64,000 nucleotides of DNA from Cenarchaeum sp. (lineage in GTDB: Archaea; Thermoproteota; Nitrososphaeria; Nitrososphaerales; Nitrosopumilaceae). Shown here piece by piece: positions 24,731 through 41,606 of this stretch. The translations under genes were made by a program, and so were the position numbers. Location of the stretch: contig OZ243037.1 in assembly GCA_965212015.1 (NCBI GenBank), positions 1,664,001 through 1,728,000 on the forward strand, written 5' to 3'. The first letter of the stretch is position 1. Each line of letters opens with the position of its first letter. The notes under the pieces were generated by a model. That model was not told the origin of the DNA and searched no databases. It was given only the letters and a program-made list of their open reading frames with translations.

Positions 24731-26677
24731 CTATGCTTCAACAATTCCTGCGACTATCGCATTTGAAAAATTACTTTTTATCTCGGGCATGACATCTATG
24801 GCAAATTCAATATCATCACGTTTTGCATCGGATAATGATTTTCCAGAAAATATTTTGGTAGTAACGTGCTTTAGCATTACATTGTATAGTCTTCCACGAT
24901 TCATGTTTCCAAACCCTGCCTCTTGTAACAGTCCAGCACACAAATCCAATAGCGTTTTTTTGAACAATTCTTCCAGTACATCACGTTTTAGCTCTCCTGA
25001 CACCTCAAAATCATAGTCACTGACACCGCCAAGTATTTCAAGCCGTTTACTTTGCAGCTCTTTTGCTTCTACTGCTGTGATCTGCGTTCTAGATATGACC
25101 CATCTTTCTTTGTCATAAGACTTTCTATCTAGTATTGCATTCCAGTCATCTTCTTTTACATCATCAGGAGTATCTCGTTCTATTTTATCCCAGGGAATAC
25201 TTGTTGGATATTCGGGATCTGGAATTTTTATGATTTTTTCGGGCCTTGTTAGTTTTTGTATTACAGGCTTTGGTAGATCATCTCCAGGTGGAAATATCTG
25301 ATCCTCTCCTTCGACTTGCTTTATTCTGCTTACAGCTACTATTTGCCACAACCAGTCATGTTCTAAACGCGGATGATCAACTACTGCCAGTATCTCGCTA
25401 TTTGTAGGCTCTTTGATTATTTTTCTCAATCCCCTGCCTATTACCTGTTGACCGTACACTGGGGAAGAAAACTTTCTCAACAGCAAAATCGTGGATACCT
25501 CTGGAACGTCCCATCCTTCCCTTAGCATGAGCACACTGACAACTGCCTCATATCTGCTGTCAAATGTCCCGATCTGTAATGCCTCTTCTCTGTCTTTCTC
25601 GTTTGATTCCTCTGTTACTAGCAGCGTGTTTATTTTGAATATGTCCTGAAGTGTTCTTTGGACCCTCTGGCCTTCCTGTATGCTCATGGTAACTACGAAC
25701 AAGATTGGCTTGTATCGTCCCCTAGCTCTGACAATTTGTTCCTTGTGACGTTGTAGTGCTATGGCAATCTGTTTTCTCATTGGTTCGGGATCCAAAATCC
25801 ATTGGAATGATTTTAGATTTCTTTCTGCTTCTTGAAATTCTGCGTCAAGCTCGGTAACGTCTTTTTTCTCGCCTGTTATCGGATTGGTATATGTCATCTT
25901 GAGCAGCTTGACTTCGGGTTGGTATACTACTACTGATTTTATTATTCCATCATCCAGTGCATTTGATACGTCATAATAATAGATCATTTCAGAGTCTGGC
26001 TCCTGTCCGTCTGCACGATTTGGCGTGGCAGTAGTGTCCAATCGAAATTTACTTTGTTCAGATAAAAGATTCAGCACATTGGTGTATTCAGGTGCAGGCG
26101 TATTATGCGCCTCATCATTAAAGATTGCAATATCTCCTACAAGATTCTTCAAATATCCAAGGTTCTGATTTGTGCCCCCGGAGGTATAAAGCTGCTGTAT
26201 GTTACCCAATATGATTCCCGATTCAAGCATTCCCTGTGGCTGTTCACCACTTTTCATCATGTGCAATCCGAGCTCATTTATCAACATGTTGGTTTGTGGT
26301 GTAGCAAATTCAAATTTATCAAATACTACTCCATCCTTAAAATCCGATTCTAGTCTTGCTCGCACAATAGTGTTGGGTGTCAGTATGACAAATTTGTTGA
26401 TATTATGTGCTGATTTCAGCCAGAATATCACTGCCGCTATTATAGCTGTCTTTCCACCACCTGTAACTATGTTTAGAAGGTTGTTCTTTTTTTGCAATAT
26501 TTCAAACGAATAGATGACCCTAAGCGTGCCTTCAAGTTGGTGTTTCCACATCTTGAGTTTTTTATCCTGCTTTAATAAATTCTCGATAAATTCGCGTGTC
26601 TCATGCTTTACATTTGGATATCCAGAATGCATCCAATCTTTGAATTTTTCTTCATGTTGTAAGAACGAATCTAGCAA
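24731..26677 (-). CDS. Type III restriction Res subunit helicase lacking the nuclease domain
   Basis: VTGGGKT, NDEAHN, TTATP, LREGWDVP, QVIGRGLR. Confidence 0.88.
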   Translation of the reverse strand: MLDSFLQHEEKFKDWMHSGYPNVKHETREFIENLLKQDKKLKMWKHQLEGTLRVIYSFEILQKKNNLLNIVTGGGKTAIIAAVIFWLKSAHNINKFVILTPNTIVRARLESDFKDGVVFDKFEFATPQTNMLINELGLHMMKSGEQPQGMLESGIILGNIQQLYTSGGTNQNLGYLKNLVGDIAIFNDEAHNTPAPEYTNVLNLLSEQSKFRLDTTATPNRADGQEPDSEMIYYYDVSNALDDGIIKSVVVYQPEVKLLKMTYTNPITGEKKDVTELDAEFQEAERNLKSFQWILDPEPMRKQIAIALQRHKEQIVRARGRYKPILFVVTMSIQEGQRVQRTLQDIFKINTLLVTEESNEKDREEALQIGTFDSRYEAVVSVLMLREGWDVPEVSTILLLRKFSSPVYGQQVIGRGLRKIIKEPTNSEILAVVDHPRLEHDWLWQIVAVSRIKQVEGEDQIFPPGDDLPKPVIQKLTRPEKIIKIPDPEYPTSIPWDKIERDTPDDVKEDDWNAILDRKSYDKERWVISRTQITAVEAKELQSKRLEILGGVSDYDFEVSGELKRDVLEELFKKTLLDLCAGLLQEAGFGNMNRGRLYNVMLKHVTTKIFSGKSLSDAKRDDIEFAIDVMPEIKSNFSNAIVAGIVEA

Positions 26678-28492
26678 TTATCTCACCTGGATTATCTCCG
26701 TGTGTATCTTTTCTCCTCCCAGATCATCTTGGACGCGGCATGCGATGGGGATTTTGCCTATGTGCTTGAACTTGTATGGTACTTTGAATAGAGGCTTTTT
26801 CTTGTCATCGCTTCCAGCTCGACCATATGCGAATCCTTGAGTGGGTGTGAATCTTCCCTTATATTCAAAATCCCACTGTACGTTTATGATTTTTGCCCCT
26901 GTGTTTATTGCGATTGATTCGGATGCATCAAATTCGTATGTCATGGATGTGATTTTCTTGTGATTGACCGATACTTCTGGTGGCAGAATGAATGTCAGCA
27001 GAGATTTGTAGTCGTCGTGTAGCTTTATTATATGATCTTTGAATGTTGGTGAGTCAAGTTCCGTCAAAGTAATCTGAATTAGATCAATCTCGGCATGATT
27101 TTCCCCCTTTAGTTTTTCAGCTGCCGTCTTGGCAGATTCTGCAAAGGACCAAGCAAGCATTATCCCCTTTCGCAATCCCTTTGTTTCTGCTATTTCTCGT
27201 GCAAATTCGATCACATCATTTTTGATTACACGGTTTTTTTGTCTAGCTTTTCCCACAAACAATGGTGTTTGTCTCTTAAAACCGTGAATATGTCCGTCAC
27301 CCGATGTCACTCTTCCACCATATGCGGATATCACAAAACTTCTAAATTCCATATCTGTGAGGGCTACAAGAGCCGGAATTTCATATGTTCCCCAGTATTC
27401 TATGGATATGTCGGGTATTGGAAGAAGTGTTTGTTGGGTTCCAGCATCTAATTTTTCATGCAATGCTTCCAGCCTGCCTTGTGTGATTGCAACTGCAACT
27501 CTGGATTGGTCACAGGCAATCCATTTCCGATTTAATTTTTGTGCTGTAGAAGGTAAGGTGCCTCCACCACAAAAAAAATCGGCTACCACATCTCCCTCAT
27601 TTGTTGACGCCTTGATTATTCTCTCTAAGAGTGCTTCAGGTTTTTGAGTTGGATACCCCAAACGTTCTTTTGCTTGTGAATTAAGATATGAAATTTCCCA
27701 TACATCTCTCATAGCCTTTTCCCTAGATTTATCATCTGTGTAATATTGTTCAAGTTTTTTATTTTTTCCAACTGTCGTAATTCTAGATCCCATATGCTTT
27801 GATTTTTCACTGTATGGTTCTTTTTGCATGTTAAAGATAGGTGTTTCAGTCTTTCCATAAAATAATAATACATCATGCATGCGTTGGAAATTCTTTGTAG
27901 CTCCTGTCCATCTTTGATATGCCCAAATTATTTCATTTCTAAAATTATCATATCCAAAAATCTTGTCTAATTCTATTTTAACATAATGGGATGCATGCCA
28001 ATCCAAATGTACATAAATCGAACCTGTCGACTTTAATAATCGTTTCATTTCTAACAGTCTGGCATTTAACCAAATCAGATAACTCGGCAAACCTCCTTCC
28101 CAAATATCAGTAAATGATCTTACTTCATTTTGATCTCCAAAAATTACATTATAATTTGCGCCAGAGAAAAATGGCGGATCAATATAAATTAAATCAATAG
28201 AATTTGATGGAAGCATTCTCATTACATGTAGATTATCTCCCCAAAATAGTCGATTATGTTCTAATTTTGAATGACCAAATGTAACCCTGTCTGCCTTTTG
28301 AAATGGTAATGCGACACGAGGATATATCTTATGATATTGTTTGTCCTTGTCACAACCAAATGGAAGCTCATTAACTGGAACAGAACCAAATCGCCTTGGA
28401 ATCTTATAAAATTCCGGTTGTTTTGGAATTTCAGTAATTTCGCTAAGATCATCAAATACTTCATTGTCTGTATATTCTGAAATACGATCCAA
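26678..28492 (-). CDS. Type III Mod-like beta-class adenine methyltransferase with degenerate Mrr-like and PKD-like C-terminal domains
   Basis: GDNL, YIDPPF, YPTQKPEALLERII, DFFCGGGT. The frame stays open upstream to a CTG at 28525. Confidence 0.9.
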   Translation of the reverse strand: MDRISEYTDNEVFDDLSEITEIPKQPEFYKIPRRFGSVPVNELPFGCDKDKQYHKIYPRVALPFQKADRVTFGHSKLEHNRLFWGDNLHVMRMLPSNSIDLIYIDPPFFSGANYNVIFGDQNEVRSFTDIWEGGLPSYLIWLNARLLEMKRLLKSTGSIYVHLDWHASHYVKIELDKIFGYDNFRNEIIWAYQRWTGATKNFQRMHDVLLFYGKTETPIFNMQKEPYSEKSKHMGSRITTVGKNKKLEQYYTDDKSREKAMRDVWEISYLNSQAKERLGYPTQKPEALLERIIKASTNEGDVVADFFCGGGTLPSTAQKLNRKWIACDQSRVAVAITQGRLEALHEKLDAGTQQTLLPIPDISIEYWGTYEIPALVALTDMEFRSFVISAYGGRVTSGDGHIHGFKRQTPLFVGKARQKNRVIKNDVIEFAREIAETKGLRKGIMLAWSFAESAKTAAEKLKGENHAEIDLIQITLTELDSPTFKDHIIKLHDDYKSLLTFILPPEVSVNHKKITSMTYEFDASESIAINTGAKIINVQWDFEYKGRFTPTQGFAYGRAGSDDKKKPLFKVPYKFKHIGKIPIACRVQDDLGGEKIHTEIIQVR

Positions 28493-29668: not shown

Positions 29669-30202
29669 TTGAAAGGCGAACTGGTGGAGAACCGCATCAT
29701 AATATGGGACGTCAAAGACTCGCGCAAGCTGTTCGGCTCTGGATATTTTGGCAAGCCAATAGGAATGCCAAAACCAAAGCTGGAAGAGATTGACGTGCCG
29801 CTAGTCCTGGACTTAATCGAGGGCCTGTATCTTGCGCAAAAGGGCACAATATCCGTATACAAGCTGAAAAAGAAAATGTCAGAGGATGCGCTGCTAGAGA
29901 TCTGCCGCAAGGAATACCACAACTTTGATAAAAAATATACGGTATACGTGGACTTTCGGGACAAGGGATATATAGTAAATCCGGGGATAAAGTTCGGATG
30001 CGACTTTGCGGTGTACGAGCGGGGGCCGGGAATTGATCATGCGCCGTATCTGGTGCAGGTGTACAACAAAAAGGACGTAATGACGTCCACCGGGATGGTT
30101 CTTGCCGGCAGGCTTGCAACTACGGTGCGCAAGCAGTTCATACTTGCAATACCCGGCAGAAACAAGATAGATTTGCTCGCCCTTGACTGGTGGCGTGCCT
30201 AG
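29669..30202 (+). CDS. endA: tRNA-intron endonuclease, catalytic subunit
   Basis: LDLIEGLYL, VYVDFRDKGY, GIKFGCDFAVYERGPGIDHAPY, GRLATTVRK. Confidence 0.95.
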   Translation: MKGELVENRIIIWDVKDSRKLFGSGYFGKPIGMPKPKLEEIDVPLVLDLIEGLYLAQKGTISVYKLKKKMSEDALLEICRKEYHNFDKKYTVYVDFRDKGYIVNPGIKFGCDFAVYERGPGIDHAPYLVQVYNKKDVMTSTGMVLAGRLATTVRKQFILAIPGRNKIDLLALDWWRA

Positions 30203-32173: not shown

Positions 32174-33271
32174 TCATAGCCCATATATTAGCAGGATTGA
32201 AGCAGAAAACAAAATAAATTTTGCTGCCGCAATCTTTCTTTCAAACGGAATGGATTCCCCAGTCATGAAATAGTCAAAACGGGTAAAACCCGATTCCTTT
32301 CTCCTCAGACATCCTGCAATCCTGCCGAGATCGTTTGATAGCCTTATGACCGTGGCTTCGAGAGAATCCCTCATTGATGAATTCGGATGCCTTATCCTTG
32401 TGCGTATTCGCTCTATTGAAAACTCGGATAGCACGACCAATCCGATCCATACCGGAACGTGGTATGACGGAAACAATCCCAAAAAGGACAGCGCGGCAAT
32501 TATGGGGATTCCTGTAAACAGCGTTTCAAACATGTTTGGAAAGTTGTAATATCTGTTTTTCGTGTACATGTTTGGCAGGCGTGAATCCCCAAGCGCCCAC
32601 CTAAAAAAACGAGTGTATGAGCGAGCACCGTTTGCCCACCAATTGTGGCATACGGCAGCATCGGGAACGCTTCTGAGCCATTTGCCATTTTTTTTGATTA
32701 TCCGTATGCAAAAATCAATGTCCTCACCCCCTCCGTGTTTTGGAAACAACGGAGAGAATCGAATGCCGCCTAGTTTTTTTCTGGATATCATGAGATTAGA
32801 CGTCGTCCCCCATGCCACCCAACTTCGTGTCTGCGAAATGTCAAAAAACGTCATAATATCGCTAGTACGTATCCCCCGGGTAAATGCATTAATCGGGGCT
32901 GGAAATTTCGTGGGGCCGACATATCCCGGAGCATCTGGTTCATCTTTTATTGAATGGACATACGAGAACAATATGTCAGGAGACGGAATCACGTCATCAT
33001 CTATAAAGAGAATATAATCCCCTGATCCGACGTCTATTCCTACGTTTCTTGATCGAGAAGCCCCTAGGTTTTCTGGATTTACAATAAAATCAACCGGATG
33101 CCCCTCGTGGGCCATACTTGTACTGGAAATCGACGGATTATCACTGATAATATAGTAATGAACCTTTACATAACGTGGAATATTCACACACAACATTGAC
33201 AATAATCTTTCAACATCAAGCCTGATGCTGGGAATGACTATGTCTATTTTTAATTCCTTTATTTCAACCAT
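32174..33271 (-). CDS. Glycosyltransferase family 2 with C-terminal membrane segments
   Basis: DIVIPS, NLGASRSRNVG, LFIDDDV, GGGEDIDFC. Confidence 0.9.
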   Translation of the reverse strand: MVEIKELKIDIVIPSIRLDVERLLSMLCVNIPRYVKVHYYIISDNPSISSTSMAHEGHPVDFIVNPENLGASRSRNVGIDVGSGDYILFIDDDVIPSPDILFSYVHSIKDEPDAPGYVGPTKFPAPINAFTRGIRTSDIMTFFDISQTRSWVAWGTTSNLMISRKKLGGIRFSPLFPKHGGGEDIDFCIRIIKKNGKWLRSVPDAAVCHNWWANGARSYTRFFRWALGDSRLPNMYTKNRYYNFPNMFETLFTGIPIIAALSFLGLFPSYHVPVWIGLVVLSEFSIERIRTRIRHPNSSMRDSLEATVIRLSNDLGRIAGCLRRKESGFTRFDYFMTGESIPFERKIAAAKFILFSASILLIYGL

Positions 33272-34215
33272 GTGTGATCCATTCTTTGATTACAAAAACA
33301 ATACAGTCCTACTTTGCATCTTTTTTTCTCTTTTTTAAAATTTTCCTGTATTCGTGATAATTCGTCCCTACTTGTGGTTTCCGCAGACATTCCGTATGAC
33401 GAGGAACCCACCCAATAGCACATGCTAAGGTTTCCACGTATGGATATGGCGTGTTTGGAGTCCAGCCCACACCCGCATCCACTAATTGGCTTGCCTTTTA
33501 CAACTCTGGCAACATCCGTCCAGAATTCAGGAGGGTTTGTTGGAGGATGAACCATGCTATCTAGCTTGGATGCGATCTCTACCAACGATCGCGTGTCCTT
33601 GTTGGACAGTAAAAGATCTGGGGCATTTTTTGACACATAGCTGTCGTCAAATATGGGCTGAAATTTTATAAAATCTACGCCAATCCTGTGACCAAAATCT
33701 AACAATGATTTTATGGTTTTCCAGTTGGCAGTAACGTGTGAAACTACGGCGTTTATCCCAAATTCAAAATCACGTGGCTTGTGTGAAATCTTTTCGATAT
33801 TTTCAAGTATTTGTCCGTGCAGATATGGCGGAGTATGGCGTGTCAAAAAGGATTCTTTACTGTCAATAGAATCAAGCGAAACGGTAAACCCCGTTGCGCC
33901 TACCTCACACAATCGTTTGGCCTCCTTTACCGTTAACCTATATGCGTTTGTTATGATTATTATCTCATCGACTAGACGGCTATAATAGCGTAGGATGGAT
34001 TCCAATTCAGGATGGATTCTAGGCTCGCCTCCGGACATTACAATTCGCTTTATTCCCAAATTTGCCAAAGTTTCTGCAGGAATCAGTATATTTTTGAGAC
34101 TCTGTTTCCTGTCTGGGGTTTTATTGCTTCCCCATTGGCAATACCGACACTCTGCATTACACTGGTATGTCAAGTCTACAGTCAGGGCAGGTTTTTGTGA
34201 TCTCAATGTTTGCAA
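33259..34215 (-). CDS. Radical SAM enzyme with C-terminal Cys cluster (Twitch/SPASM-like)
   Basis: CNAECRYC, SGGEP, TN, VSLD, CGCG...GNLSMC...C.C; overlaps the GT2 start. Confidence 0.9.
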   Translation of the reverse strand: MQTLRSQKPALTVDLTYQCNAECRYCQWGSNKTPDRKQSLKNILIPAETLANLGIKRIVMSGGEPRIHPELESILRYYSRLVDEIIIITNAYRLTVKEAKRLCEVGATGFTVSLDSIDSKESFLTRHTPPYLHGQILENIEKISHKPRDFEFGINAVVSHVTANWKTIKSLLDFGHRIGVDFIKFQPIFDDSYVSKNAPDLLLSNKDTRSLVEIASKLDSMVHPPTNPPEFWTDVARVVKGKPISGCGCGLDSKHAISIRGNLSMCYWVGSSSYGMSAETTSRDELSRIQENFKKEKKRCKVGLYCFCNQRMDHTWLK

Positions 34216-34385: not shown

Positions 34386-35534
34386 TCACAATTGTTCCGC
34401 TTCCAATAATTGGTCATAAAGAAACGCTGATTCTACAAATAAACTCTTCATGACCTTGCAAATCTTTGAGCTTTTCCTATGTTTAGAAATTATCTTCTCC
34501 ATCTCCACAATTTTCTCATTGCGATTTAATTTTGATATGTTGTCTAATTCTTCTAAGGCATATGTAGATTTGTCAATGAGAAATTTTGTTTCCATATTCT
34601 TGTTAATTTTTTTTAAAAGCAATTCGATTATGAATCTGATTAGTAAAATATCTGCCACGTGAATATGTCTGGGATAATTCCTACTACCCAATAATTCAGT
34701 CTTAAACTTATTAAATCTACCCTCATATGATTTATCCAATTTAATTGAATCTTGTATTTGTAATATGCCAACATGGAAATTTTTAATGTCATTCAATATT
34801 TCATCAAAACTTGGCTTGTTATTAGTGAAATATGATATTTCATCCTTTGAAATTTTTTTAAATGCGTTTATTATCTCTTCCATAGGAAATATACCTTGTG
34901 TTGTTTTTATGAGGGTTGCAATATCATAAATCTGTTTTGGAATATCACTTTTTCTTTTAGATTTGATTCCTATTGTATTGGATGGAAGTGTAGTCAGCTT
35001 GTCCCCAATTAATGTGCCACGATCATAGATTGAAATTGGAAAGGGCAAATCAAAACCTATTATTTTGAAATTCTTGTTGATTTGTCTTGTTTTAAGATCC
35101 ATCCGATTTTCATGAAAAATATCTATTTTTATCTCTGGATTTTCATTTAATGATGATTTATAATTGCAGTAATAAGTTAAAAGCGGTAATTCCTTTTCTT
35201 TTGGTTTTTTTGGCACATGAGGTTCATCTATGCTTATAATATCGCTTAATTTTTCAGAAATTTTTTTCATTCTTTTCATTGTTTGTTCTCTGGACAAGCT
35301 TGTAACTATGTCTATATCTACGCTTAATCGTCGCAGTGTAGGATCCTGTAGATGAAATGGTACTGCCATCCCGCCTTTTACGACCGAGTCTTGTATTACT
35401 TCTTTAATATGTCCATAAACTTCAAAATCCATTATGAATTTTTCTAGTGACAATAAATCTCTAAAGCCATATTCTTTTCCCAATTTTTCAATTTGTGTCT
35501 TATTCCGGATTGCCTGAAAGTACTGTTTCACCAT
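34386..35534 (-). CDS. AbiEii/AbiGii-family nucleotidyltransferase toxin
   Basis: VVKGGMAV...RRLSVDIDI, IKIDI, GDKLTT, KQIYDI. The start overlaps the upstream stop (TAATG). Confidence 0.85.
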   Translation of the reverse strand: MVKQYFQAIRNKTQIEKLGKEYGFRDLLSLEKFIMDFEVYGHIKEVIQDSVVKGGMAVPFHLQDPTLRRLSVDIDIVTSLSREQTMKRMKKISEKLSDIISIDEPHVPKKPKEKELPLLTYYCNYKSSLNENPEIKIDIFHENRMDLKTRQINKNFKIIGFDLPFPISIYDRGTLIGDKLTTLPSNTIGIKSKRKSDIPKQIYDIATLIKTTQGIFPMEEIINAFKKISKDEISYFTNNKPSFDEILNDIKNFHVGILQIQDSIKLDKSYEGRFNKFKTELLGSRNYPRHIHVADILLIRFIIELLLKKINKNMETKFLIDKSTYALEELDNISKLNRNEKIVEMEKIISKHRKSSKICKVMKSLFVESAFLYDQLLEAEQL

Positions 35535-37444
35535 TATCTGATAATCTCCATTATCTTTTCTAGCCGTGAAGATTTCTTCATTATTTTGCCGCATCTTTTT
35601 AATTCCTTATGGTTGATCAGATTATAGTTTTCCATGCTTTGAAGCATTCTTTTCAGATCAGTGTCGTCCAGCGGTATGTCGTGCGTGTATTTTTCAACTA
35701 ATAGATCCACAAATGCCTTTTCGGGAGTCGCAATTGTAGAGCCTTTGATTGTACTGTATTCCCTTATAGCGATTATCCTGTCTATATTGTGTAATCCAAA
35801 CAGCGTGTTCAATGAACCAGGATCTGGTCTGTCCACTATAACAAAGCGGTCATTGAATTTTGACAGCAAATCTGTGATATATTCGCCTTTATCGGGCGTT
35901 GTATGGACGGTATAGACTAGTTTTCCTCTCATATTGTGAAGATATGGTGCCAGCGTGGATAATGCAGTAAATTGAAACTGAAATTCAAAATTCTCTTTTA
36001 GAAATTCATGCATGTCGATTAGCTCATTTACTAGATTATAATTCCTTAAATTTGGTGTCTTTGATTCCTTTGTTCTACTAACTATGGGTTTTTCTATATT
36101 TTTTGTCCATTTCTGTAAAAAATCACTCATTTCACGGTTTCGCTCTTTTATCAGCTCCTCAAACTCTGGCCTCTCTTCCAATAGTTTTGCCTCAGATGCA
36201 ATCATACCTATTAATAACAACGGGTTTTTTACAAACTTGAATGTATCATCTTTGCCATTTATAGTGATTTTGAGGTGTGAATTTTTCTTTTCGATTGTAT
36301 ACAATGGTTCATTTTCGAGTGGCCTTATGTCAATCTCTATCGGATTTTTACCTCCATTCATCATAAATGGCGTGGCATTTTCCAAAAGTTCCCGAGATAT
36401 CTTTGAGCGTATATTTGGCACTAGATGTTTTGCCGGAGATGATCCATCAAAATATCCTAGCACTGACTCTATGGATACTGTATCCGCACCCCTGGATCTT
36501 GACGAGTGCAATGTCTGCATGAACATTTTTGATTTACCAAACTCCTCCAAAGCCTCCCGGTATTCGGGACTTTCCTTGATGAATTCACTCTTGCTGAAAT
36601 TCACCGGAACGTGATCTAGGCTCAGCTCGCCCATAATCATAGAGTTTTCCGGATGTGCTGCAAACCCAAATTTGTCAAATGCTTTTATCAGCCTGTTATT
36701 TCGAAACAAATGAATCCCATAATTCCCTTTTATAGATCGTTTTTTTAACAGTGCTACATAACCGTGAATCTCTTTTCCAAAGGAAAGCTTGATCTTTATT
36801 TTTTTCTTGCTGGCCTCCACAATGGGGGGTTTCTCTGGCATGCACTTGACCGTATTGACATGTATGGAGACCTGTCCGGACTGTAGATATGGAGAATAAC
36901 GTATCCCGAAACCCTCCTTGAATTTTGAGACCTGATTTGGATACAATGACACGTTTAACTCGGTTACCGTTATCCTTGTCCCGTGCCAGTCCTCTTTTTT
37001 GTCCAGTATCTTCTCTGTAATGGTGAAATTCCGCCAGTTTTTTGATTTGTCTGACAGCCAGTCATTTTCATCATACACCGTCCTGTACTCTTTGCATGAT
37101 TTTACCTTTGAGGTAGTGATTGTAAACCTTTTTCCCAGTGACGAGCAGGCACTCTTCATTCCTATTCCAAATCGCCCAAGACTTTGTTCGGATTTTGTAT
37201 CTTTTGCAATAGTCATTGCATTTGTCAGATCGTCTTTGCTCATGCCTTGGCCATCGTCATTCACATGAATCTCTCTTGCCTCAAAGTCCAGACGGACCAG
37301 AATTTCCTCCTTTTTGCCTGGGATTCTTGCATCGATGGAATTATCCAAAAGCTCTGCAATGGCATATTCTGTCCGATACCCAACGAGACCGATCTTTTGT
37401 ATTAGGGACTTGTCAGGCGTAATATCAACCTGAATTTTGTTCAT
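35534..37444 (-). CDS. MORC-like GHKL ATPase fused to a C-terminal AbiEi-like antitoxin domain
   Basis: AELLDNSIDA, NDDGQGMS, GRFGIGMKSA, HGTRIT and an S5-like GIHLFRNNRLI...NFSKSEF; C-terminal FTALSTL...IATPEKAFVDLL. Confidence 0.75.
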   Translation of the reverse strand: MNKIQVDITPDKSLIQKIGLVGYRTEYAIAELLDNSIDARIPGKKEEILVRLDFEAREIHVNDDGQGMSKDDLTNAMTIAKDTKSEQSLGRFGIGMKSACSSLGKRFTITTSKVKSCKEYRTVYDENDWLSDKSKNWRNFTITEKILDKKEDWHGTRITVTELNVSLYPNQVSKFKEGFGIRYSPYLQSGQVSIHVNTVKCMPEKPPIVEASKKKIKIKLSFGKEIHGYVALLKKRSIKGNYGIHLFRNNRLIKAFDKFGFAAHPENSMIMGELSLDHVPVNFSKSEFIKESPEYREALEEFGKSKMFMQTLHSSRSRGADTVSIESVLGYFDGSSPAKHLVPNIRSKISRELLENATPFMMNGGKNPIEIDIRPLENEPLYTIEKKNSHLKITINGKDDTFKFVKNPLLLIGMIASEAKLLEERPEFEELIKERNREMSDFLQKWTKNIEKPIVSRTKESKTPNLRNYNLVNELIDMHEFLKENFEFQFQFTALSTLAPYLHNMRGKLVYTVHTTPDKGEYITDLLSKFNDRFVIVDRPDPGSLNTLFGLHNIDRIIAIREYSTIKGSTIATPEKAFVDLLVEKYTHDIPLDDTDLKRMLQSMENYNLINHKELKRCGKIMKKSSRLEKIMEIIR

Positions 37445-37502
37445 AATCTATGAATTTAGATCTAGAATTTAAGCGTTTTTATCGATTTATAGTCATGTAC
37501 GA

Positions 37503-37528
37503 TTATACGGTACAGCCATACCGTATAA
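37503..37528. promoter_or_regulatory. Perfect 10-6-10 inverted repeat upstream of the MORC-AbiEi gene
   Basis: TTATACGGTA-CAGCCA-TACCGTATAA. Confidence 0.65.
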
Positions 37529-37701
37529 CTGGAATATGGGCGATTTTCCGGATTTAACATCATTGCTTAAATATGCAGCCATAAGGGACTGCCAGCCTTG
37601 TACCGGCGCATATGCCACACAGGCTCCCTGATGCAACCACCGGCAGAAAAGCCCCCCATTTTACCTCAAAAGTTTTATGCCACACAAAATAACCATATCC
37701 A

Positions 37702-38529
37702 TTGTCCGAAGACGCCAAAACAACACTCGAAAAGGCAGACCAGCTCTTTGAGCATGAAAAATACGAGGCGGCGCTAAAACAGTATAACATTGTGCTAAAG
37801 GCCGACCCGGACAACATACCTGCCATAGTGAGCAAGGACATGGCATGCCTGCATCTCAAGAAAACAAACCCCGCCACACAGAAATTTCTAGACAGAAACA
37901 ACATGGATCCGCTAACGCTGTACATTATGGCCGCAAGAATGTTTAGCGACGCAAAGATGCACACAAAGGCAATCGACGCCCTCAGTATAATGGCGGCCAT
38001 ATTCCAGGACAACCATCTGGTATATCACAACCTGGGAATTGCGTTTGACGCCCATTACTCGGATAGCATGGACGAAAAACTGCTCGATGAGGCCATGCAG
38101 TGCTATGATCAGGCGCTAGAGATAAAGCCGGATTTCACCGATGCCGCACATAACAAGGCGCTCATACTTCAACAGCTGCAAAGGTTTGATCAGGCCATAA
38201 AGCACTGCGATAAAGTCCTCAAGTCGTGCCCGAACGACCCGACGATGCTTGAGCTTAAAGGCGCGACCCTGAACATCATGCACGAGTACAAAAAGGCCAT
38301 ACGGTGCCATAATATGGCGCTAAAGGCAAAACCCGACTCCATACCTGTCCGATATAACAAGGCCGTGACACTTTACCACCTGGGAAGGATGGAGGAGTCA
38401 CTCGACATGCTAGACGAGGCAGGCAGGATAGATCCGAATCTCGCAAACTATGCAAACCTGAGGGAAAACCTGGTAATCCAGCTGGGCTTTAACACCATGA
38501 GCGAGTACAAGAGCTATTCCGGCCGTTAA
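37702..38529 (+). CDS. Tetratricopeptide repeat protein (copy 1)
   Basis: Multiple TPR helix pairs (EAMQCYDQALEIKPD; AIKHCDKVLKSCPND). Confidence 0.9.
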   Translation: MSEDAKTTLEKADQLFEHEKYEAALKQYNIVLKADPDNIPAIVSKDMACLHLKKTNPATQKFLDRNNMDPLTLYIMAARMFSDAKMHTKAIDALSIMAAIFQDNHLVYHNLGIAFDAHYSDSMDEKLLDEAMQCYDQALEIKPDFTDAAHNKALILQQLQRFDQAIKHCDKVLKSCPNDPTMLELKGATLNIMHEYKKAIRCHNMALKAKPDSIPVRYNKAVTLYHLGRMEESLDMLDEAGRIDPNLANYANLRENLVIQLGFNTMSEYKSYSGR

Positions 38530-38581: not shown

Positions 38582-39766
38582 GTGGCACAACTGTTGTCCG
38601 AATCAGAAGATCAGACCATACAAAGACTGCAACGAGATATCAGGGAGCAACGCAAAGAGCTCAGACAATTACGGCAAAAGGCCAGGAAAGCACACGAAAG
38701 AACCGAGCTGGAAAACGACAGACTATACAAGCAGGAAATGATGCAGAGCACGGGCAAGGGCAATCTCACGGAATGGGACAAATCCCAGCTCTGCGCCGTG
38801 ATCGAAAAGCTCGACGGTATAATTGCCGACAAGAAAAAACTATACATAATAGCAATGATGAGCCGCAAAAAGTTCGATTACCTCCTGGAGGAATTCACAA
38901 AAGAGGTCAAAAAACGCCCCGACGCGCCGGATTTTTTGGGCGACAAATCCCTGCCTGATGACAGGTATATGCTGCGCATAAGGCACGCACTGCTATTGGC
39001 ACTATTTGAGTGCGCCACTAGCATGGACCGGGATCTGACCGGCATGACACTCGTCATGAATCCGGATATGGCAGAGAGATATATCGGGTTTGCAAGCGCC
39101 ATACTGCGAGACATCCTGCCTACCGCAGCCAGAATCTCCCAAATCATACGGGATGCAAGAACCGTCGATGAAACAAGACACCTGGTTTCAGGAGCAAACG
39201 GCGGGGAGATAATATTATACGAGACGCACACGCCGCTAGACCGGGAGACAGACGAAGTGCACTATCCCGGCAGGAAAATCACATGTATGATGAGCAGTAC
39301 AATGGCCCTCAACAGTTCCGGACTAATCCTTGCGGCGACAATGCCGAGACAGGATTTGACGCACAATCCTGCCATATTAAGTGACGCTCTGGGGCCGCTG
39401 AGCCGCATCATGAAGGATCCGGACGCGCCAGAAACGGACAGGGTAACAATATACGGGGGCGAGGAATATCCCGGCATTGGCGACCTTCCAGGCATTCTCA
39501 TACACAGGCCTGTAAAGTCAAAAAACTCTAGACTGAACAGGATTCAGAAAAACGCAGGGCTTGATTATACAAGGGTAAAGACGCGCCTTGCAGAGCGCCT
39601 AAACAGGTACAAGGTACTGATAAACCCATACAATGACTCTGACGTCGTTTATAACGAGAATCATTCGGTGGTGACGGGACTGGCAAACTTTGAGCTGCTG
39701 TGGGATGAAGAGCAGGAGCGGCCAAAATACGAGCTTTTGCAGCCGGCGTCCAAACAATCAGAGTGA
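38582..39766 (+). mobile_element. IS5/DDE_Tnp_4-like transposase derivative; ORF intact, catalytic residues apparently lost
   Basis: RHALLLAL HTH region; ILYETHTPLDR, YPGRK, SSGLIL, IYGGEEYPGI, RLNRYKVL, GLANFELLWD. Confidence 0.6.
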
Positions 39767-39835: not shown

Positions 39836-40663
39836 ATGCACAATACAGTTGCCATAATATGCGACTGCGACGACACCCTGGCGCCGGACACTACAAACTT
39901 TTTGCTGGAACAGAACGGAATAGATACGGACAAGTTCTGGCACAATATAGACGTCAATTTCACGCAAAAGGGCTGGGATCCCCCGCAGGCGTACCTGGGC
40001 GAGATTCTAAGCATGATAAAGACAGGCAGGATAAAACAAAACACGGCAGCCAAGATGAAGGCGCTTGCAGAAAAAGTCGAGCCGTACAACGGCGTAAACA
40101 CGTTCATCTCTGAGCTGCAGGAACGGACATCAAACGATCCCGGATTCATCAGGGCCGGGATAAACATAGAGGGGTATATCATCTCGTCTGGCATAGAGGA
40201 TTTACTGCGGGGATGCCTGTTTGCAGGACAGTTCAAGGATGTATTTGCCGGCAATTACGAGGTGGATAATGACGGCAAATATACTGCGATAAAGTCCACC
40301 TCCACGTTTACCGAAAAGACAAAGTTTCTTTACGCGATAAACAAGGGAATAGACGGCGAAAAACTGCGCAAGTACCCATATCTGGTAAACGACTCTATAG
40401 AAAAAAGCCAGAGGAGGATTCCCTTTGAGAACATGCTGTATATAGGCGACGGCCCGAGTGACATTCCGTGCTTTTCTGCGGTGCGAAGCAACGGCGGCCA
40501 CTGCATCGGGATAATGGACAAGAAAAACCCCAAAAAGGCCTACGAGCTGGCCAGCGGAAGGCGGACCAATTACGGGATTTATTCAGGCGACTTTGGGGCC
40601 GGCAGCGATCTCCGCCTGACCATAGATATCATCCTAGATGAGATAAGAAAAAGGGTCGCGTAA
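39836..40663 (+). CDS. HAD-superfamily hydrolase
   Basis: ICDCDDTLAP, IISSG, KTKFL, YIGDGPSDIPC. Confidence 0.85.
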   Translation: MHNTVAIICDCDDTLAPDTTNFLLEQNGIDTDKFWHNIDVNFTQKGWDPPQAYLGEILSMIKTGRIKQNTAAKMKALAEKVEPYNGVNTFISELQERTSNDPGFIRAGINIEGYIISSGIEDLLRGCLFAGQFKDVFAGNYEVDNDGKYTAIKSTSTFTEKTKFLYAINKGIDGEKLRKYPYLVNDSIEKSQRRIPFENMLYIGDGPSDIPCFSAVRSNGGHCIGIMDKKNPKKAYELASGRRTNYGIYSGDFGAGSDLRLTIDIILDEIRKRVA

Positions 40664-40775: not shown

Positions 40776-41606
40776 TTGGACAGCAAGCGGATCCAAAAAA
40801 TACTCCAAAAGGCAAACAAACTGGCCGATCTTGAGGAATACGAGTCTGCGATCAAAAACTATGACATGGTGCTGAAAATAGATCCGGCCAACATAGCTGC
40901 CATAGTGTGCAGGGACATGGCGTGCAGGCCCCTTAAAAAAACCAGCATTCACACGGAGCGTTTTTTCAAGAAATTCGACATGGACCTGCCAACGATGTAC
41001 CATCTGGGCGCGCAGATGCTTGTAGAACACAAGGAATATGCGATTGCCATCGACATATTTAATATAGTGGCAGAGATGCGCCCGGAGAACCACCTGGTGC
41101 ATTTTAACATGGGCGTTGCATTCTTTAACTATTCAAAAAAGAAAAAAAAGGACCTGCTTGCAAAGGCGTTAAAGTGCTATGAAAAGTCGTTGAAATTAAA
41201 GCCGGATTTTGTCAACGCCGCACACAACAAGACAGAGGTGCTTTTGTGCCTAAAGCGGTACGATCAGGCGATAAAACACTGCGACGAGCTTCTCGAGACG
41301 GACCCGAATGACACCAAGGCACTCGAGCAAAAGGCATTTAGTTTTGACTATACGTATGAATACCAAAAGGCCCTAGAGTGCTATGACAGAATGCTAGAGA
41401 TAAACCCCAAAAACGGGATAACCATGTACAACAAGTCCATATCGCTTTCCCACATGCGCAGGACAGAGGAGGCACTAGAGATGCTAGACCGGGCAGTCAG
41501 TTTTGAGCCCAGCCTAAAACGCAGTACAAGCCTCAGAAAATCGCTGACAGCTCAGCTGGAATACGAGAAATCGCTAAAGTCGCAACCCAACCTGGATTCC
41601 TCGTAA
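40776..41606 (+). CDS. Tetratricopeptide repeat protein (copy 2)
   Basis: Collinear paralog of 37702-38529 (AAHNK, DQAIKHCD, YNK). Confidence 0.9.
   Translation: MDSKRIQKILQKANKLADLEEYESAIKNYDMVLKIDPANIAAIVCRDMACRPLKKTSIHTERFFKKFDMDLPTMYHLGAQMLVEHKEYAIAIDIFNIVAEMRPENHLVHFNMGVAFFNYSKKKKKDLLAKALKCYEKSLKLKPDFVNAAHNKTEVLLCLKRYDQAIKHCDELLETDPNDTKALEQKAFSFDYTYEYQKALECYDRMLEINPKNGITMYNKSISLSHMRRTEEALEMLDRAVSFEPSLKRSTSLRKSLTAQLEYEKSLKSQPNLDSS

What the first reader, a model, noticed from the sequence alone, without database searches (positions are those of the whole stretch)
34386..37528. MORC-type GHKL ATPase fused to an AbiEi-like antitoxin, coupled to an AbiEii toxin: candidate new anti-viral system
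Seen: the 636-aa ORF has all four GHKL motifs and an S5-like domain of the prokaryotic MORC type. Its last ~170 aa carry the T-x-E-K-A-x-x-D-L signature I associate with AbiEi C-terminal domains. It overlaps (TAATG) an AbiEii-type NTase with KGG..A..R.S.DID, and a perfect 10-6-10 palindrome lies upstream. Established: AbiEi antitoxins normally carry an N-terminal wHTH, and prokaryotic MORCs typically partner nucleases or RM systems. Inference: the wHTH has been replaced by an ATP-dependent DNA clamp, giving a sensor-antitoxin that may release a tRNA-nucleotidylating toxin during infection. This is logically like PARIS but built from different parts. I do not recognise this architecture as described.
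Basis: partly seen in the sequence, partly recalled or inferred. Interest (0 to 1): 0.85.

Follow-up and report, generated by a model that had tools for sequence, protein, structure and literature searches.

The report
MORC ATPase fused to AbiE antitoxin
An archaeal two-gene module pairs an AbiEii-type toxin enzyme with an antitoxin domain whose usual DNA-binding head has been replaced by a MORC-type ATPase; it is a conserved variant of a known phage-defence/toxin-antitoxin system that I could not find described.

Summary
Window 35534-37444(-) encodes a 636-aa protein. It has a MORC-type GHKL+S5 ATPase (aa 1-~310), an unassigned middle domain, and a C-terminal ~165-aa domain.

The C-terminal domain's best structural match is the C-terminal domain of AbiEi (6Y8Q: Z 9.5). 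It is homologous (hhalign 99.9%, E 1e-34) to stand-alone wHTH(AbiEi_4)+DUF6577 proteins. Those stand-alone proteins sit upstream of AbiEii genes.

The fusion overlaps (TAATG) a 382-aa AbiEii/DUF1814 nucleotidyltransferase whose catalytic motifs are intact.

The pair is conserved. Of 24 assessable related loci, 15 carry a full-length AbiEii immediately downstream. In 2 more the toxin gene is split by an IS element. Distribution is patchy (19 of 121 genomes of the family), and the pair lies in a low-GC defence island.

The 10-6-10 palindrome is real and belongs to a recurrent upstream repeat class.

Best reading: an AbiE-type toxin-antitoxin or abortive-infection module whose wHTH is replaced by a MORC ATPase. 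Toxicity, neutralisation and sensing are inferred, not shown.

PADLOC v2 has no dedicated model, and nine literature searches found no description. Verdict: new variant of a known kind; interest 0.62.

The parts
35534..37444 (-). CDS of the 636-aa MORC-AbiEi fusion protein (stop codon at 35534-35536)
   Evidence: ORF list. 354 homologues at E<=1e-3; 118 of the 120 listed cover >=97% of the query, and 119 of those 120 are 633-715 aa long. The full length is conserved in A1.
36515..37444 (-). GHKL (Bergerat) ATPase plus S5-like transducer domain, MORC type (aa 1-~310)
   Evidence: Pfam HATPase_c_3 1e-22 and Morc6_S5 1.8e-4. PDB hits to MORC4/3/2. Motifs I-IV invariant in 34 of 34.
36095..36472 (-). 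Middle alpha/beta domain of unknown function (aa ~325-450)
   Evidence: AF2 model of aa 285-470: mean pLDDT 83, ~90 over the core. Only weak fold hits: TTHA0227 Z 5.9 and minigluzincins Z ~4; Foldseek E >= 0.49. No HExxH motif in the sequence. No wHTH detected. The protein-language-model look-up gave scores < 0.9.
35537..36028 (-). AbiEi-C-terminal-domain-like (DUF6577-type) antitoxin domain (aa ~473-636)
   Evidence: AF2 model pLDDT 88.6. 6Y8Q AbiEi is rank 1 by Foldseek (E 0.012, prob 0.97) and by VIA-align (Z 9.5, rmsd 3.3 over 123 residues, chain 57-195; next best Z 6.6). Pfam DUF6577 E 1.3e-4 (below cut-off), with 11 of 23 family members matching. hhalign against stand-alone wHTH+DUF6577 proteins: 99.9%, E 1.1e-34.
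34386..35534 (-). CDS of the 382-aa AbiEii/DUF1814 nucleotidyltransferase (start ATG 35532-35534 overlapping the upstream stop as TAATG; stop 34386-34388)
   Evidence: Pfam AbiEii 2e-14, above cut-off. PADLOC AbiEii 7e-26. Invariant G54 G55 R69 S71 D73 D75 K179 K200 D204 in 16 of 16. The start is inferred from homologues whose starts lie -7 to +25 nt from the upstream stop.
37503..37528 (.). Perfect 10-6-10 palindrome TTATACGGTA-N6-TACCGTATAA; candidate operator
   Evidence: A TATAC...GTATA repeat occurs in 8 of 26 homologous upstream regions vs 6 of 1741 control windows.
37445..37487 (-). Conserved promoter-proximal element (...GATAAAAACGCTTAAATTCTAGAT...); probable BRE/TATA-type core promoter flanked by short inverted half-sites
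   Evidence: Alignment of 16 upstream regions (A6): TTAAATTC is nearly invariant. The flanking half-sites change together in some loci: CTAGAA/TTCTAG, CCGGAA/TTCCGG (L008), CTGGcAA/TTCCAG (L007). The BRE/TATA assignment is my inference.

Best explanation
The two genes form an AbiE-family toxin-antitoxin / abortive-infection module with an unusual antitoxin.

Toxin/effector: the downstream gene encodes an AbiEii (DUF1814) nucleotidyltransferase. By analogy with AbiEii and MenT it would block translation by adding nucleotides to tRNA acceptor ends.

Antitoxin: the upstream protein carries an AbiEi-type antitoxin domain at its C-terminus. In place of the winged-helix DNA-binding head of ordinary AbiEi it has a MORC-type GHKL-S5 ATPase plus a middle domain.

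Proposed working: in the resting cell the C-terminal domain binds AbiEii and keeps it off. The most likely route is the one shown for AbiEi and MenA, promotion of toxin auto-phosphorylation, here at the invariant Ser71 of the R-x-S-x-D-x-D motif. The MORC part is an ATP-driven dimerising module. It couples a cue, most plausibly loading onto foreign DNA, to loss of that inhibition, so that infected cells stop translating.

Shown here: domain composition, homology, gene overlap, conservation of the pair, intact catalytic motifs in both enzymes, accessory distribution, defence-island context.

Inferred: toxicity, neutralisation, the phosphorylation site, DNA binding by the MORC part, and any role in infection.
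For: Architecture.
- Pfam, PADLOC and PDB hits for MORC-type GHKL+S5 and for AbiEii.
- For the C-terminal model, AbiEi (6Y8Q) is rank 1 in Foldseek (E 0.012, prob 0.97) and in VIA-align. In VIA-align it scores Z 9.5 and is the only chain of 48,161 with Z>=8; Rv2827c/MenA3 (1ZEL) scores Z 5.9.

Homology of the C-terminal domain.
- Its profile finds 214 proteins at E<=1e-3 in 1.84 billion representatives. They fall in two size classes, ~620-676 aa fusions and ~220-310 aa stand-alone proteins.
- Of 10 relatives scanned, all 10 have DUF6577. Three of the eight stand-alone-sized ones show an N-terminal AbiEi_4 wHTH, two of them above the cut-off. L082 does too.
- hhalign of the fusion C-terminus against 49 stand-alone proteins gives 99.9%, E 1.1e-34. 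The match starts just after their wHTH.
- 5 of 7 stand-alone DUF6577 loci in the same phylum have an AbiEii of this subfamily directly downstream (E 9e-19 to 3e-49).

Coupling.
- TAATG overlap.
- Among 25 full-length loci from genome contigs, 24 are assessable. 15 have a 336-394-aa AbiEii ORF starting -7 to +25 nt from the MORC stop (+131 in L025). 1 more is cut by the contig end, and 1 has a hit with a broken or uncertain frame.

Toxin-like behaviour of the second gene. It is split by a DDE transposase in L005 and by an IS605 OrfB/TnpB element in L011. It is reduced to remnants in L010 and L034 and gone in L006, L015 and L017, while the MORC-AbiEi gene stays (truncated to 520 aa in L015).

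Accessory, defence context.
- GC is 0.27-0.36 across the pair, against 0.51 for the genome.
- The C-terminal domain is found in 19 of 121 genomes and 8 of 27 genera of the family, with up to 5 copies per genome.
- Neighbours include an Eco57I-like methylase with an HKD-SNF2 protein, a type III R-M system and a PDC-S34 homologue.

Binding. Complex prediction of the C-terminal domain with AbiEii gave 'weak support'. The score was 0.49 and the best of 3 controls 0.00. That mark was reached by 58 of 80 solved complexes and 2 of 110 mismatched pairs. At 0.60 or under, however, it was reached by only 7 of those 80 and by both passing mismatches. The runs agree in at least 79% of contacts, and the partner's pLDDT is at least 81. 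Like complexes exist (MenA1:MenT1, title seen in the listing; AbiEi:AbiEii), so this may reflect likeness only.

Mechanistic precedent. AbiEi binds AbiEii and induces auto-phosphorylation at T65, and an antitoxin loop is required (bioRxiv 10.64898/2026.01.19.700257; abstract and sections 9, 10 and 12 read).
Against: - No experiment and no expression data: no RNA run is listed for this stretch.
- Sequence evidence linking the C-terminus directly to named AbiEi models is weak. PADLOC AbiEi gives E 0.013 and 0.024. No Pfam AbiEi family hits the fusion, and DUF6577 is below cut-off for the window's own protein. Profiles A3 and A7 do not hit 6Y8Q by sequence.
- Z 9.5 is only modestly above the best Z of 7-8 that the tool reports as typical for models without a clear match.
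- The complex prediction is only 'weak support'.
- The fusion is well conserved, including the FQFT.LSTL.PYLHN and REY...PEKA..DL motifs, in loci with no toxin gene (L006, L017). The second copy in this genome, 43% identical, also lacks a toxin gene. The protein may therefore have a role that does not need a cis toxin.
- Nothing shows that this MORC binds DNA or senses infection.
- S. agalactiae AbiE gave no protection against 32 coliphages in E. coli.
Confidence: 0.6

Rival explanations
1. Plain addiction or autoregulated TA module. The MORC plus middle part only replaces the wHTH as a DNA-binding or tethering module. It would repress the operon at the upstream inverted repeats and sense nothing. 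The module persists as a selfish stabiliser of the island.
For: Canonical AbiEi uses its wHTH for autoregulation at promoter inverted repeats (abstract start of PMC7319586, seen in the listing). Here the promoter region carries recurrent inverted repeats and a conserved element whose flanking half-sites vary between loci. The same AbiEi-type domain is also fused to an HsdS-like target-recognition domain in P0244 and P0253, which suggests the N-terminal slot is simply 'a DNA binder'. The pair sits next to a transposase-like ORF in a low-GC island.
Against: A ~450-aa ATPase with all catalytic motifs invariant in 34 of 34 homologues is costly for a mere repressor head. No sequence-specific DNA-binding fold was found in the fusion. 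The closest relatives of the MORC part in CPR and DPANN genomes carry or neighbour other effector-like modules: SMODS, an SDH-type protease, pentapeptide repeats. That fits a sensor/effector logic better.
Confidence: 0.22
2. The MORC protein is the main actor, for example by ATP-dependent compaction or silencing of invading DNA. The AbiEii-type nucleotidyltransferase would then be an accessory enzyme that modifies or regulates the MORC protein or a nucleic acid, not a growth-arresting toxin. The AbiEi-like domain would merely dock it.
For: The fusion persists without the NTase in several loci and in this genome's second copy. A close MORC-N relative is followed by a SMODS nucleotidyltransferase (L027), so MORC+NTase pairing recurs with a signalling-type NTase.
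Against: The NTase is a clear AbiEii/DUF1814 member with the family's motifs invariant. Characterised members of that family are toxins. Stand-alone relatives of the C-terminal domain pair with the same NTase subfamily without any MORC. Repeated IS disruption and decay of the NTase gene alone is the pattern expected of a toxin.
Confidence: 0.12
3. The adjacency and the AbiEi-like fold are coincidental or decaying, and there is no functional unit.
For: Some loci are degraded.
Against: There are hundreds of full-length homologues. Overlapping or abutting start and stop codons are conserved in 15 of 24 assessable loci. Catalytic residues are invariant in both proteins.
Confidence: 0.02

Closest known systems
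AbiE (AbiEi/AbiEii) of Lactococcus and Streptococcus agalactiae, and MenAT of Mycobacterium tuberculosis (type IV, now proposed type VII, TA / abortive infection)
   Same: A DUF1814/AbiEii nucleotidyltransferase with the GG...R-x-S/T-x-D-x-D, K and D motifs. An upstream partner with an AbiEi-CTD-like fold. A bicistronic, overlapping gene pair. Inverted repeats in the promoter region.
   Different: The partner lacks the N-terminal wHTH that defines AbiEi/COG5340. Instead it has ~450 aa of MORC-type GHKL+S5 ATPase plus an unassigned domain. The toxin carries a ~90-aa C-terminal extension. The host is an archaeon.
Stand-alone wHTH(AbiEi_4)+DUF6577 proteins paired with AbiEii (uncharacterised; found here in the same phylum)
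   Same: The C-terminal domain is homologous (hhalign 99.9%, E 1e-34). The same AbiEii subfamily lies directly downstream in 5 of 7 loci.
   Different: They have a wHTH where the fusion has the MORC part. They are the likely ancestors of the fusion (inference).
Prokaryotic MORC/paraMORC ATPases (Iyer, Abhiman and Aravind 2008), MzaB of the MZA system, Tiamat
   Same: A GHKL+S5 ATPase module in defence islands. The N-terminal ~100 aa hit MzaB (PADLOC 2e-10; NCBIfam 56 bits) and weakly TmtA.
   Different: Those proteins partner with or carry nucleases, helicases or R-M components. For MzaB the score is 56 against an 850-bit cut-off, so this is not a member. None is described with an AbiE-type toxin: the terms nucleotidyltransferase, Abi and toxin are absent from Iyer 2008.
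PARIS (AriA/AriB) - analogy only, recalled from memory
   Same: Logic: an ATPase holds a tRNA-directed toxin inactive until an infection cue arrives.
   Different: There is no homology of any part. Sequestration and triggered release are unproven here.
HsdS-like (Methylase_S) + DUF6577 fusions (P0244, P0253)
   Same: An AbiEi-type C-terminal domain with its wHTH replaced by another large N-terminal module.
   Different: The N-terminal module is a type I R-M specificity-like domain, not an ATPase. Their gene neighbours were not examined.

Membership tests
MORC-type GHKL ATPase | Bergerat-fold ATP-binding motifs I-IV | tested here: met
   HATPase_c_3 E 1e-22. E31/N35, D63/G65/G67, G90/G93/G95 and G155/T156 are invariant in 34 of 34.
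MORC-type GHKL ATPase | S5-fold transducer domain directly after the GHKL domain, MORC-like rather than MutL/Hsp90/GyrB-like | tested here: met
   Morc6_S5 E 1.8e-4, below the cut-off for the window's protein; above the cut-off (32.6 bits) in relative L023. PDB: MORC4 aa 300-355 aligns with query 240-297, E 2.9e-7. Family-profile top hits are MORC4/3/2.
MORC-type GHKL ATPase | ATP-dependent dimerisation / DNA clamping | not testable with these tools
   Needs biochemistry.
AbiEii / DUF1814 nucleotidyltransferase toxin | Match to the family model above its curated cut-off | tested here: met
   PF08843: 54.5 bits vs 22.5. PADLOC PDLC02299: 6.8e-26 over aa 31-330 of the 402-aa frame.
AbiEii / DUF1814 nucleotidyltransferase toxin | Conserved NTase catalytic motifs (GG; R-x-S/T-x-D-x-D; K; K...D) | tested here: met
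   G54 G55 R69 S71 D73 D75 K179 K200 D204 are invariant in 16 of 16. Assigning these residues to the family's named motifs is partly from recall.
AbiEii / DUF1814 nucleotidyltransferase toxin | Growth arrest when expressed alone; tRNA nucleotidylation | not testable with these tools
   Indirect only: the gene is disrupted by IS elements in L005 and L011.
AbiEi / COG5340 antitoxin | N-terminal winged helix-turn-helix (AbiEi_4-type) DNA-binding domain | tested here: not met
   No AbiEi_4 or other HTH hit in the fusion. The hhalign match to stand-alone relatives begins after their wHTH. The fusion is therefore not filed as a canonical AbiEi.
AbiEi / COG5340 antitoxin | AbiEi C-terminal domain fold | tested here: met
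   6Y8Q is rank 1: Foldseek E 0.012, prob 0.97; VIA-align Z 9.5, rmsd 3.3 over 123 residues, chain 57-195. 1ZEL (Rv2827c) Z 5.9.
AbiEi / COG5340 antitoxin | Sequence match to AbiEi family models | tested here: inconclusive
   PADLOC AbiEi E 0.013 and 0.024. No Pfam AbiEi_1-4 hit. The link is indirect, through DUF6577 proteins that carry AbiEi_4.
AbiEi / COG5340 antitoxin | Encoded immediately upstream of, and neutralising, an AbiEii toxin | tested here: inconclusive
   Gene order and overlap are met. Neutralisation is untested. Complex prediction gave 'weak support': 0.49 vs best control 0.00.
Pfam DUF6577 (PF20217) | Match above the curated cut-off (27.8 bits) | tested here: inconclusive
   The window's C-terminus scores 22.1 bits, E 1.3e-4. 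11 of 23 family members match at E<=10, best 4e-6. PF20217 is precomputed for 7 of the 120 listed homologues. Profile-profile homology to DUF6577 proteins is strong.
Named defence systems in PADLOC-DB v2.0.0 (MZA, Tiamat, AbiE, PDC-M02) | Full-length match of the fusion to a system's protein model | tested here: not met
   MzaB covers only aa 15-114. TmtA E 0.006-0.018. PDC-M02A E 0.0026 over aa 553-630. NCBIfam MzaB scores 56 bits against a cut-off of 850. The PADLOC and DefenseFinder system-level pipelines could not be run.

The most novel reading that the evidence does not exclude
A MORC-family ATPase, the kind of enzyme that silences foreign DNA in plants and animals, acts in archaea as the infection sensor of a toxin-antitoxin-type suicide switch. 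ATP-driven clamping of the MORC part on invader DNA would pull its fused AbiEi-like domain off an AbiEii tRNA nucleotidyltransferase and unleash it. That would be a new sensor-effector coupling for both MORC and AbiE systems. It would also give a modular platform, since close relatives of the MORC part are joined to SMODS, protease and HTH modules.
Probability: 0.3. Interest if true: 0.8.

Novelty: new variant of a known kind. Interest (0 to 1): 0.62.

Why it matters
AbiE/MenAT modules are widespread. Their trigger is unknown, and their antitoxin has so far been a small wHTH repressor. A conserved family in which that head is replaced by a catalytically intact MORC ATPase points to an obvious place to look for the input signal, and it offers a tractable two-protein system.

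It also gives prokaryotic MORC ATPases a non-nuclease partner. That bears on how MORC proteins came to act in immunity.

The family is concentrated in ammonia-oxidising archaea (Nitrosopumilaceae-type genomes), whose antiviral defences are barely studied.

The finding also assigns a likely role to Pfam DUF6577, as the C-terminal domain of an AbiEi-type antitoxin.

Tried and rejected
- Sequence-profile searches of the C-terminal family (A3) and of the stand-alone family (A7) against PDB sequences did not find AbiEi (6Y8Q) or Rv2827c. A3 gave one chance-level row. A7 hit only wHTH proteins through its N-terminus. The full-length profile A2 was swamped by GHKL hits.
- Middle domain (aa ~325-450). 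Fold searches gave only weak zincin-like rows: best Z 5.9, Foldseek E >= 0.49. There is no HExxH motif. I do not call it a protease or a DNA-binding domain. The protein-atlas feature search gave scores of 0.89 with no common family.
- Expression: no RNA holder is listed for the stretch.
- Mobile-element collections: tblastn found no record covering >=80% of the fusion, in 0 of 23 plasmid records and 0 of 3 phage records with any match. The best is a Haladaptatus plasmid MORC (aa 6-302, 34% identity) followed by a hypothetical gene and a helicase-related gene.
- The earlier-findings index returned nothing for this protein.
- Literature. These term sets found no paper describing the architecture: AbiEii+MORC, DUF6577, PDC-M02, AbiEi+GHKL, DUF1814+HATPase, any two of MORC/DUF1814/COG2253/COG5340, MORC+anti-phage+prokaryotic, and AbiE+Thaumarchaeota+defense systems. 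A ninth search, AbiEi+AbiEii+C-terminal domain+structure, returned the AbiE/MenAT papers cited here but none describing the fusion. Haber et al. 2021 (PMC7848895, passages read) notes an 'AbiE family' Pfam signal in sponge Thaumarchaeota only. Its supplementary tables could not be seen and might list these genes.
- What PDC-M02 consists of could not be established.
- I considered that the palindrome alone is statistically significant and rejected this. Its recurrence across loci is what counts.

Full report
WHAT IS THERE

On the minus strand, a 636-aa ORF (35534-37444) is followed by an ORF listed as 402 aa (34386-35594). The DNA reads ...AGA TAA TGG..., so the upstream stop TAA and an ATG share a base (TAATG, 35532-35536). 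The product from that ATG is 382 aa. It begins MVKQYF, like its homologues (MVELHF, MVKLYF), whose starts lie -7 to +25 nt from the upstream stop.

GC across the pair is 0.27-0.36, against 0.51 for the 1.76-Mb genome.

THE FIRST PROTEIN

N-terminal part (aa 1-~310).
- Pfam gives HATPase_c_3 (E 1e-22, aa 23-130) and Morc6_S5 (E 1.8e-4, below cut-off).
- Single-sequence and family-profile searches of PDB sequences put MORC4, MORC3 and MORC2 first (2.9e-7; profile 9.5e-17), ahead of Hsp90, GyrB and MutL-type entries.
- The four GHKL motifs are invariant in 34 of 34 aligned homologues.
- PADLOC and NCBIfam match MzaB only over the first ~100 residues (56 bits against an 850-bit cut-off), and TmtA weakly. 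The protein is therefore MORC-type but not a member of a named defence protein family.

C-terminal part. I modelled aa 455-636 with a 101-row alignment (pLDDT 88.6).
- AbiEi of S. agalactiae (6Y8Q) is the first hit in Foldseek (E 0.012, prob 0.97).
- It is also first in a Foldseek-independent scan of 48,161 chains: Z 9.5, rmsd 3.3 over 123 residues, with model residues 19-182 on chain residues 57-195, which is the AbiEi C-terminal domain. The next hit is Z 6.6. Rv2827c/MenA3 scores Z 5.9.
- By sequence, the window's C-terminus hits Pfam DUF6577 at E 1.3e-4 (below cut-off), and 11 of 23 family members hit it.
- PADLOC AbiEi models give E 0.013 and 0.024.

A profile of the C-terminal domain, run against 1.84 billion representative proteins, finds 214 proteins at E<=1e-3.
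- They fall in two size classes: ~620-676 aa (the fusion) and ~220-310 aa.
- Of 10 relatives scanned, all 10 carry DUF6577. Three of the eight stand-alone-sized ones show an AbiEi_4 wHTH at the N-terminus, two above the cut-off. L082 shows the same.
- The N-terminus of the stand-alone family hits wHTH regulators in PDB.
- Profile-profile comparison of the fusion C-terminus with 49 stand-alone proteins gives 99.9% probability, E 1.1e-34, over 165 columns. The match begins right after the wHTH.
- In the same phylum, 5 of 7 stand-alone DUF6577 loci have an AbiEii of this subfamily directly downstream (E 9e-19 to 3e-49 with my HMM).

So DUF6577 is the C-terminal domain of an AbiEi-type antitoxin, and in the fusion the wHTH has been replaced.

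Middle part (aa ~325-450). It models confidently but has only weak zincin-like fold matches, no HExxH motif and no recognisable DNA-binding fold.

THE SECOND PROTEIN

It is a clear AbiEii/DUF1814 member: Pfam 54.5 bits against 22.5, PADLOC 7e-26. In 16 of 16 orthologues G54, G55, R69, S71, D73, D75, K179, K200 and D204 are invariant.

S71 sits two residues before the first catalytic Asp. By position this is where the phospho-acceptor T65 of S. agalactiae AbiEii is described. This equivalence is my inference; the paper passages are.

CONSERVATION OF THE PAIR

The search for related loci kept 79 loci. Of these, 25 encode a full-length relative, nearly all in Nitrosopumilaceae-type genomes. One ends inside the MORC gene, leaving 24 assessable:
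- 15 have a 336-394-aa AbiEii ORF starting -7 to +25 nt from the MORC stop (+131 in L025).
- 1 is cut by the contig end.
- 1 has a tblastn hit but a broken or uncertain frame (L020).
- 2 have the toxin gene split by an insertion: a DDE transposase in L005 and an IS605 OrfB/TnpB element in L011.
- 2 retain only remnants (L010, L034).
- 3 have none (L006, L015, L017).

This genome has a second copy of the fusion (43% identity) with no AbiEii. tblastn of the whole genome finds only one AbiEii.

Within the taxonomic family, the C-terminal domain is found in 19 of 121 genomes (16 of 95 high-quality ones) and in 8 of 27 genera, with up to 5 copies per genome. Of the 35 places, 32 lie in open frames of 603-700 aa.

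CONTEXT

The window is a defence island:
- an Eco57I-like methylase and an HKD-SNF2 protein (17403-23662; PADLOC C3a139 7e-59);
- a type III R-M pair (24731-28492);
- a PDC-S34 homologue (39836-40663; 6e-55).

More distant relatives of the MORC part (36-41% identity over ~300 aa) occur in CPR and DPANN genomes. They carry or neighbour other modules: a SMODS gene downstream (L027), a fused SDH-type protease (L028), fused sigma70-r4/DnaA-C HTH domains (L032), a pentapeptide-repeat gene (L038), or another AbiEii (L022).

UPSTREAM REGION

The 10-6-10 palindrome is at 37503-37528. Alone it is not beyond chance: there are 2 in the window against a mean of 0.9 in 10 simulations. But TATAC...GTATA repeats occur in 8 of 26 homologous upstream regions, against 6 of 1741 control windows.

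Closer to the start codon there is a strongly conserved element...AGAAAAAGnCTTAAATTCTAGATTTAAGTTC. Its flanking half-sites differ between loci in a matched way in some cases: CTAGAA/TTCTAG, CCGGAA/TTCCGG, CTGGcAA/TTCCAG. I read this as a core promoter embraced by an operator, which is inference. What binds it is unknown.

HOW IT LIKELY WORKS

Published work shows that AbiEi binds AbiEii and provokes its auto-phosphorylation, through a loop of the antitoxin C-terminal domain. This reclassifies AbiE as type VII (bioRxiv 10.64898/2026.01.19.700257; abstract and sections 9, 10 and 12 read). MenT-type relatives modify tRNA acceptor ends (titles and abstract starts seen in the listing).

By homology I propose that the fusion's C-terminal domain does the same to its AbiEii, probably at S71. 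By the offset of the structural alignment, the AbiEi loop D85-E86-I87 would fall on the nearly invariant P-Y-L-H-N (aa 500-504). This is inference only.

A complex prediction of the C-terminal domain with AbiEii gave 'weak support':
- The score was 0.49 and the best of 3 controls 0.00.
- The mark was reached by 58 of 80 solved complexes and 2 of 110 mismatches.
- At 0.60 or under, it was reached by only 7 of the 80 and by both passing mismatches.
- The runs agree in at least 79% of contacts, and the partner's pLDDT is at least 81.
- Likeness to solved complexes may explain the result.

The MORC part, with intact catalytic residues, most plausibly couples an ATP-dependent event on DNA to the state of the antitoxin domain. 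Whether that event is infection sensing (my preferred reading) or only promoter binding and tethering (the main rival) cannot be decided here. The persistence of conserved, toxin-less copies is unexplained by either reading and is noted as evidence against the simplest model.

KNOWN OR NEW

The parts are known families. The combination is not a canonical AbiEi, because the defining wHTH was tested and is absent. It also matches no named PADLOC v2 protein over its length. Nine full-text searches found no description of it, nor did passages of Iyer 2008, Makarova 2013, the 2026 Tiamat preprint, a 2026 ParA preprint and Haber 2021. Supplements were closed, and subscription journals are not covered.

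I rate it a new variant of a known kind: an AbiE-type module with a MORC-fused antitoxin. It is conserved in hundreds of sequences, mostly from ammonia-oxidising archaea.

Noticed in passing
G000:C1:1554487-1556316 (locus L081), outside the window: A second, 43%-identical copy of the MORC-AbiEi fusion (636-644 aa frame) lies in the same genome with no AbiEii gene downstream. A convergent 389-aa gene follows instead. The whole-genome tblastn finds only one AbiEii.
   Followed up: partly
window 17403-23662 (+): An Eco57I-like N6 methylase (969 aa) overlaps an HKD(PLD)+SNF2 helicase protein (1117 aa; PADLOC C3a139 'HKD+Snf2' 6.7e-59, with DrmD-like hits). This is a likely DISARM-like or HKD-SNF2 defence pair.
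   Followed up: partly
window 24731-28492 (-): A type III restriction-modification pair: a Res-like helicase (ResIII 3.6e-18) and a Mod methylase (N6_N4_Mtase 3e-45; PADLOC MTase_III 1e-49). It lies in a second low-GC stretch (0.39).
   Followed up: partly
window 39836-40663 (+): A HAD-like hydrolase matches the PADLOC candidate defence protein PDC-S34 (5.9e-55). It is flanked by two paralogous proteins that look TPR-like by eye (37702-38529 and 40776-41606; not scanned). A 394-aa ORF with no Pfam hit (38582-39766) lies alongside and may be a transposase.
   Followed up: partly
window 33259-34215 (-): A radical SAM protein lies directly downstream of the pair, with moderate PADLOC pVip (viperin-like) hits (2e-17). 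It sits in a cluster with a glycosyltransferase-like ORF and an epimerase-like ORF (named by eye, not scanned), so it may be sugar or cell-surface chemistry rather than defence.
   Followed up: no
L005:7534-8757 and L011:7263-8600: In two other genomes the AbiEii gene next to the fusion is split by mobile elements: a DDE_Tnp_1 transposase and an IS605 OrfB/TnpB-type gene with a Cas12f1-like TNB domain.
   Followed up: yes
proteins P0244 (698 aa) and P0253 (713 aa): The same DUF6577/AbiEi-type C-terminal domain is fused to an N-terminal region with type I R-M specificity-subunit (Methylase_S) similarity. This is another case of the wHTH being swapped for a large DNA-recognition module. Their neighbours were not examined.
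   Followed up: partly
L027, L028, L032, L038 (CPR bacteria and relatives): The closest relatives of the MORC part outside the fusion family carry or neighbour other modules: a downstream SMODS nucleotidyltransferase, a fused ClpP-like SDH protease, fused sigma70-r4 + DnaA-C HTH domains, and a downstream pentapeptide-repeat protein. This suggests a modular MORC platform.
   Followed up: partly
window 37529-37552 and homologous upstream regions (A6): Just distal to the palindrome the window has CCGGAAAA-N9-TATTCCAG. It resembles the promoter-proximal sites of L008 (CCGGAA...TTCCGG) and L007. Several loci (L002, L003, L005, L025) have a second TCTAGAAAA-N-TTTTCTAGA repeat ~100 nt upstream. This looks like a two-operator layout, as in S. 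agalactiae abiE; it was judged by eye only.
   Followed up: partly
window 57494-57524: This is the only other perfect inverted repeat in the window with arms >=10 (11-9-11). It was not examined.
   Followed up: no
window 29669-30202 (+): This ORF looks like an archaeal tRNA-splicing endonuclease (by eye, not scanned), which first indicated an archaeal host. Homologues and related genomes then pointed to a Nitrosopumilaceae-type archaeon with unusually high GC (0.51).
   Followed up: no
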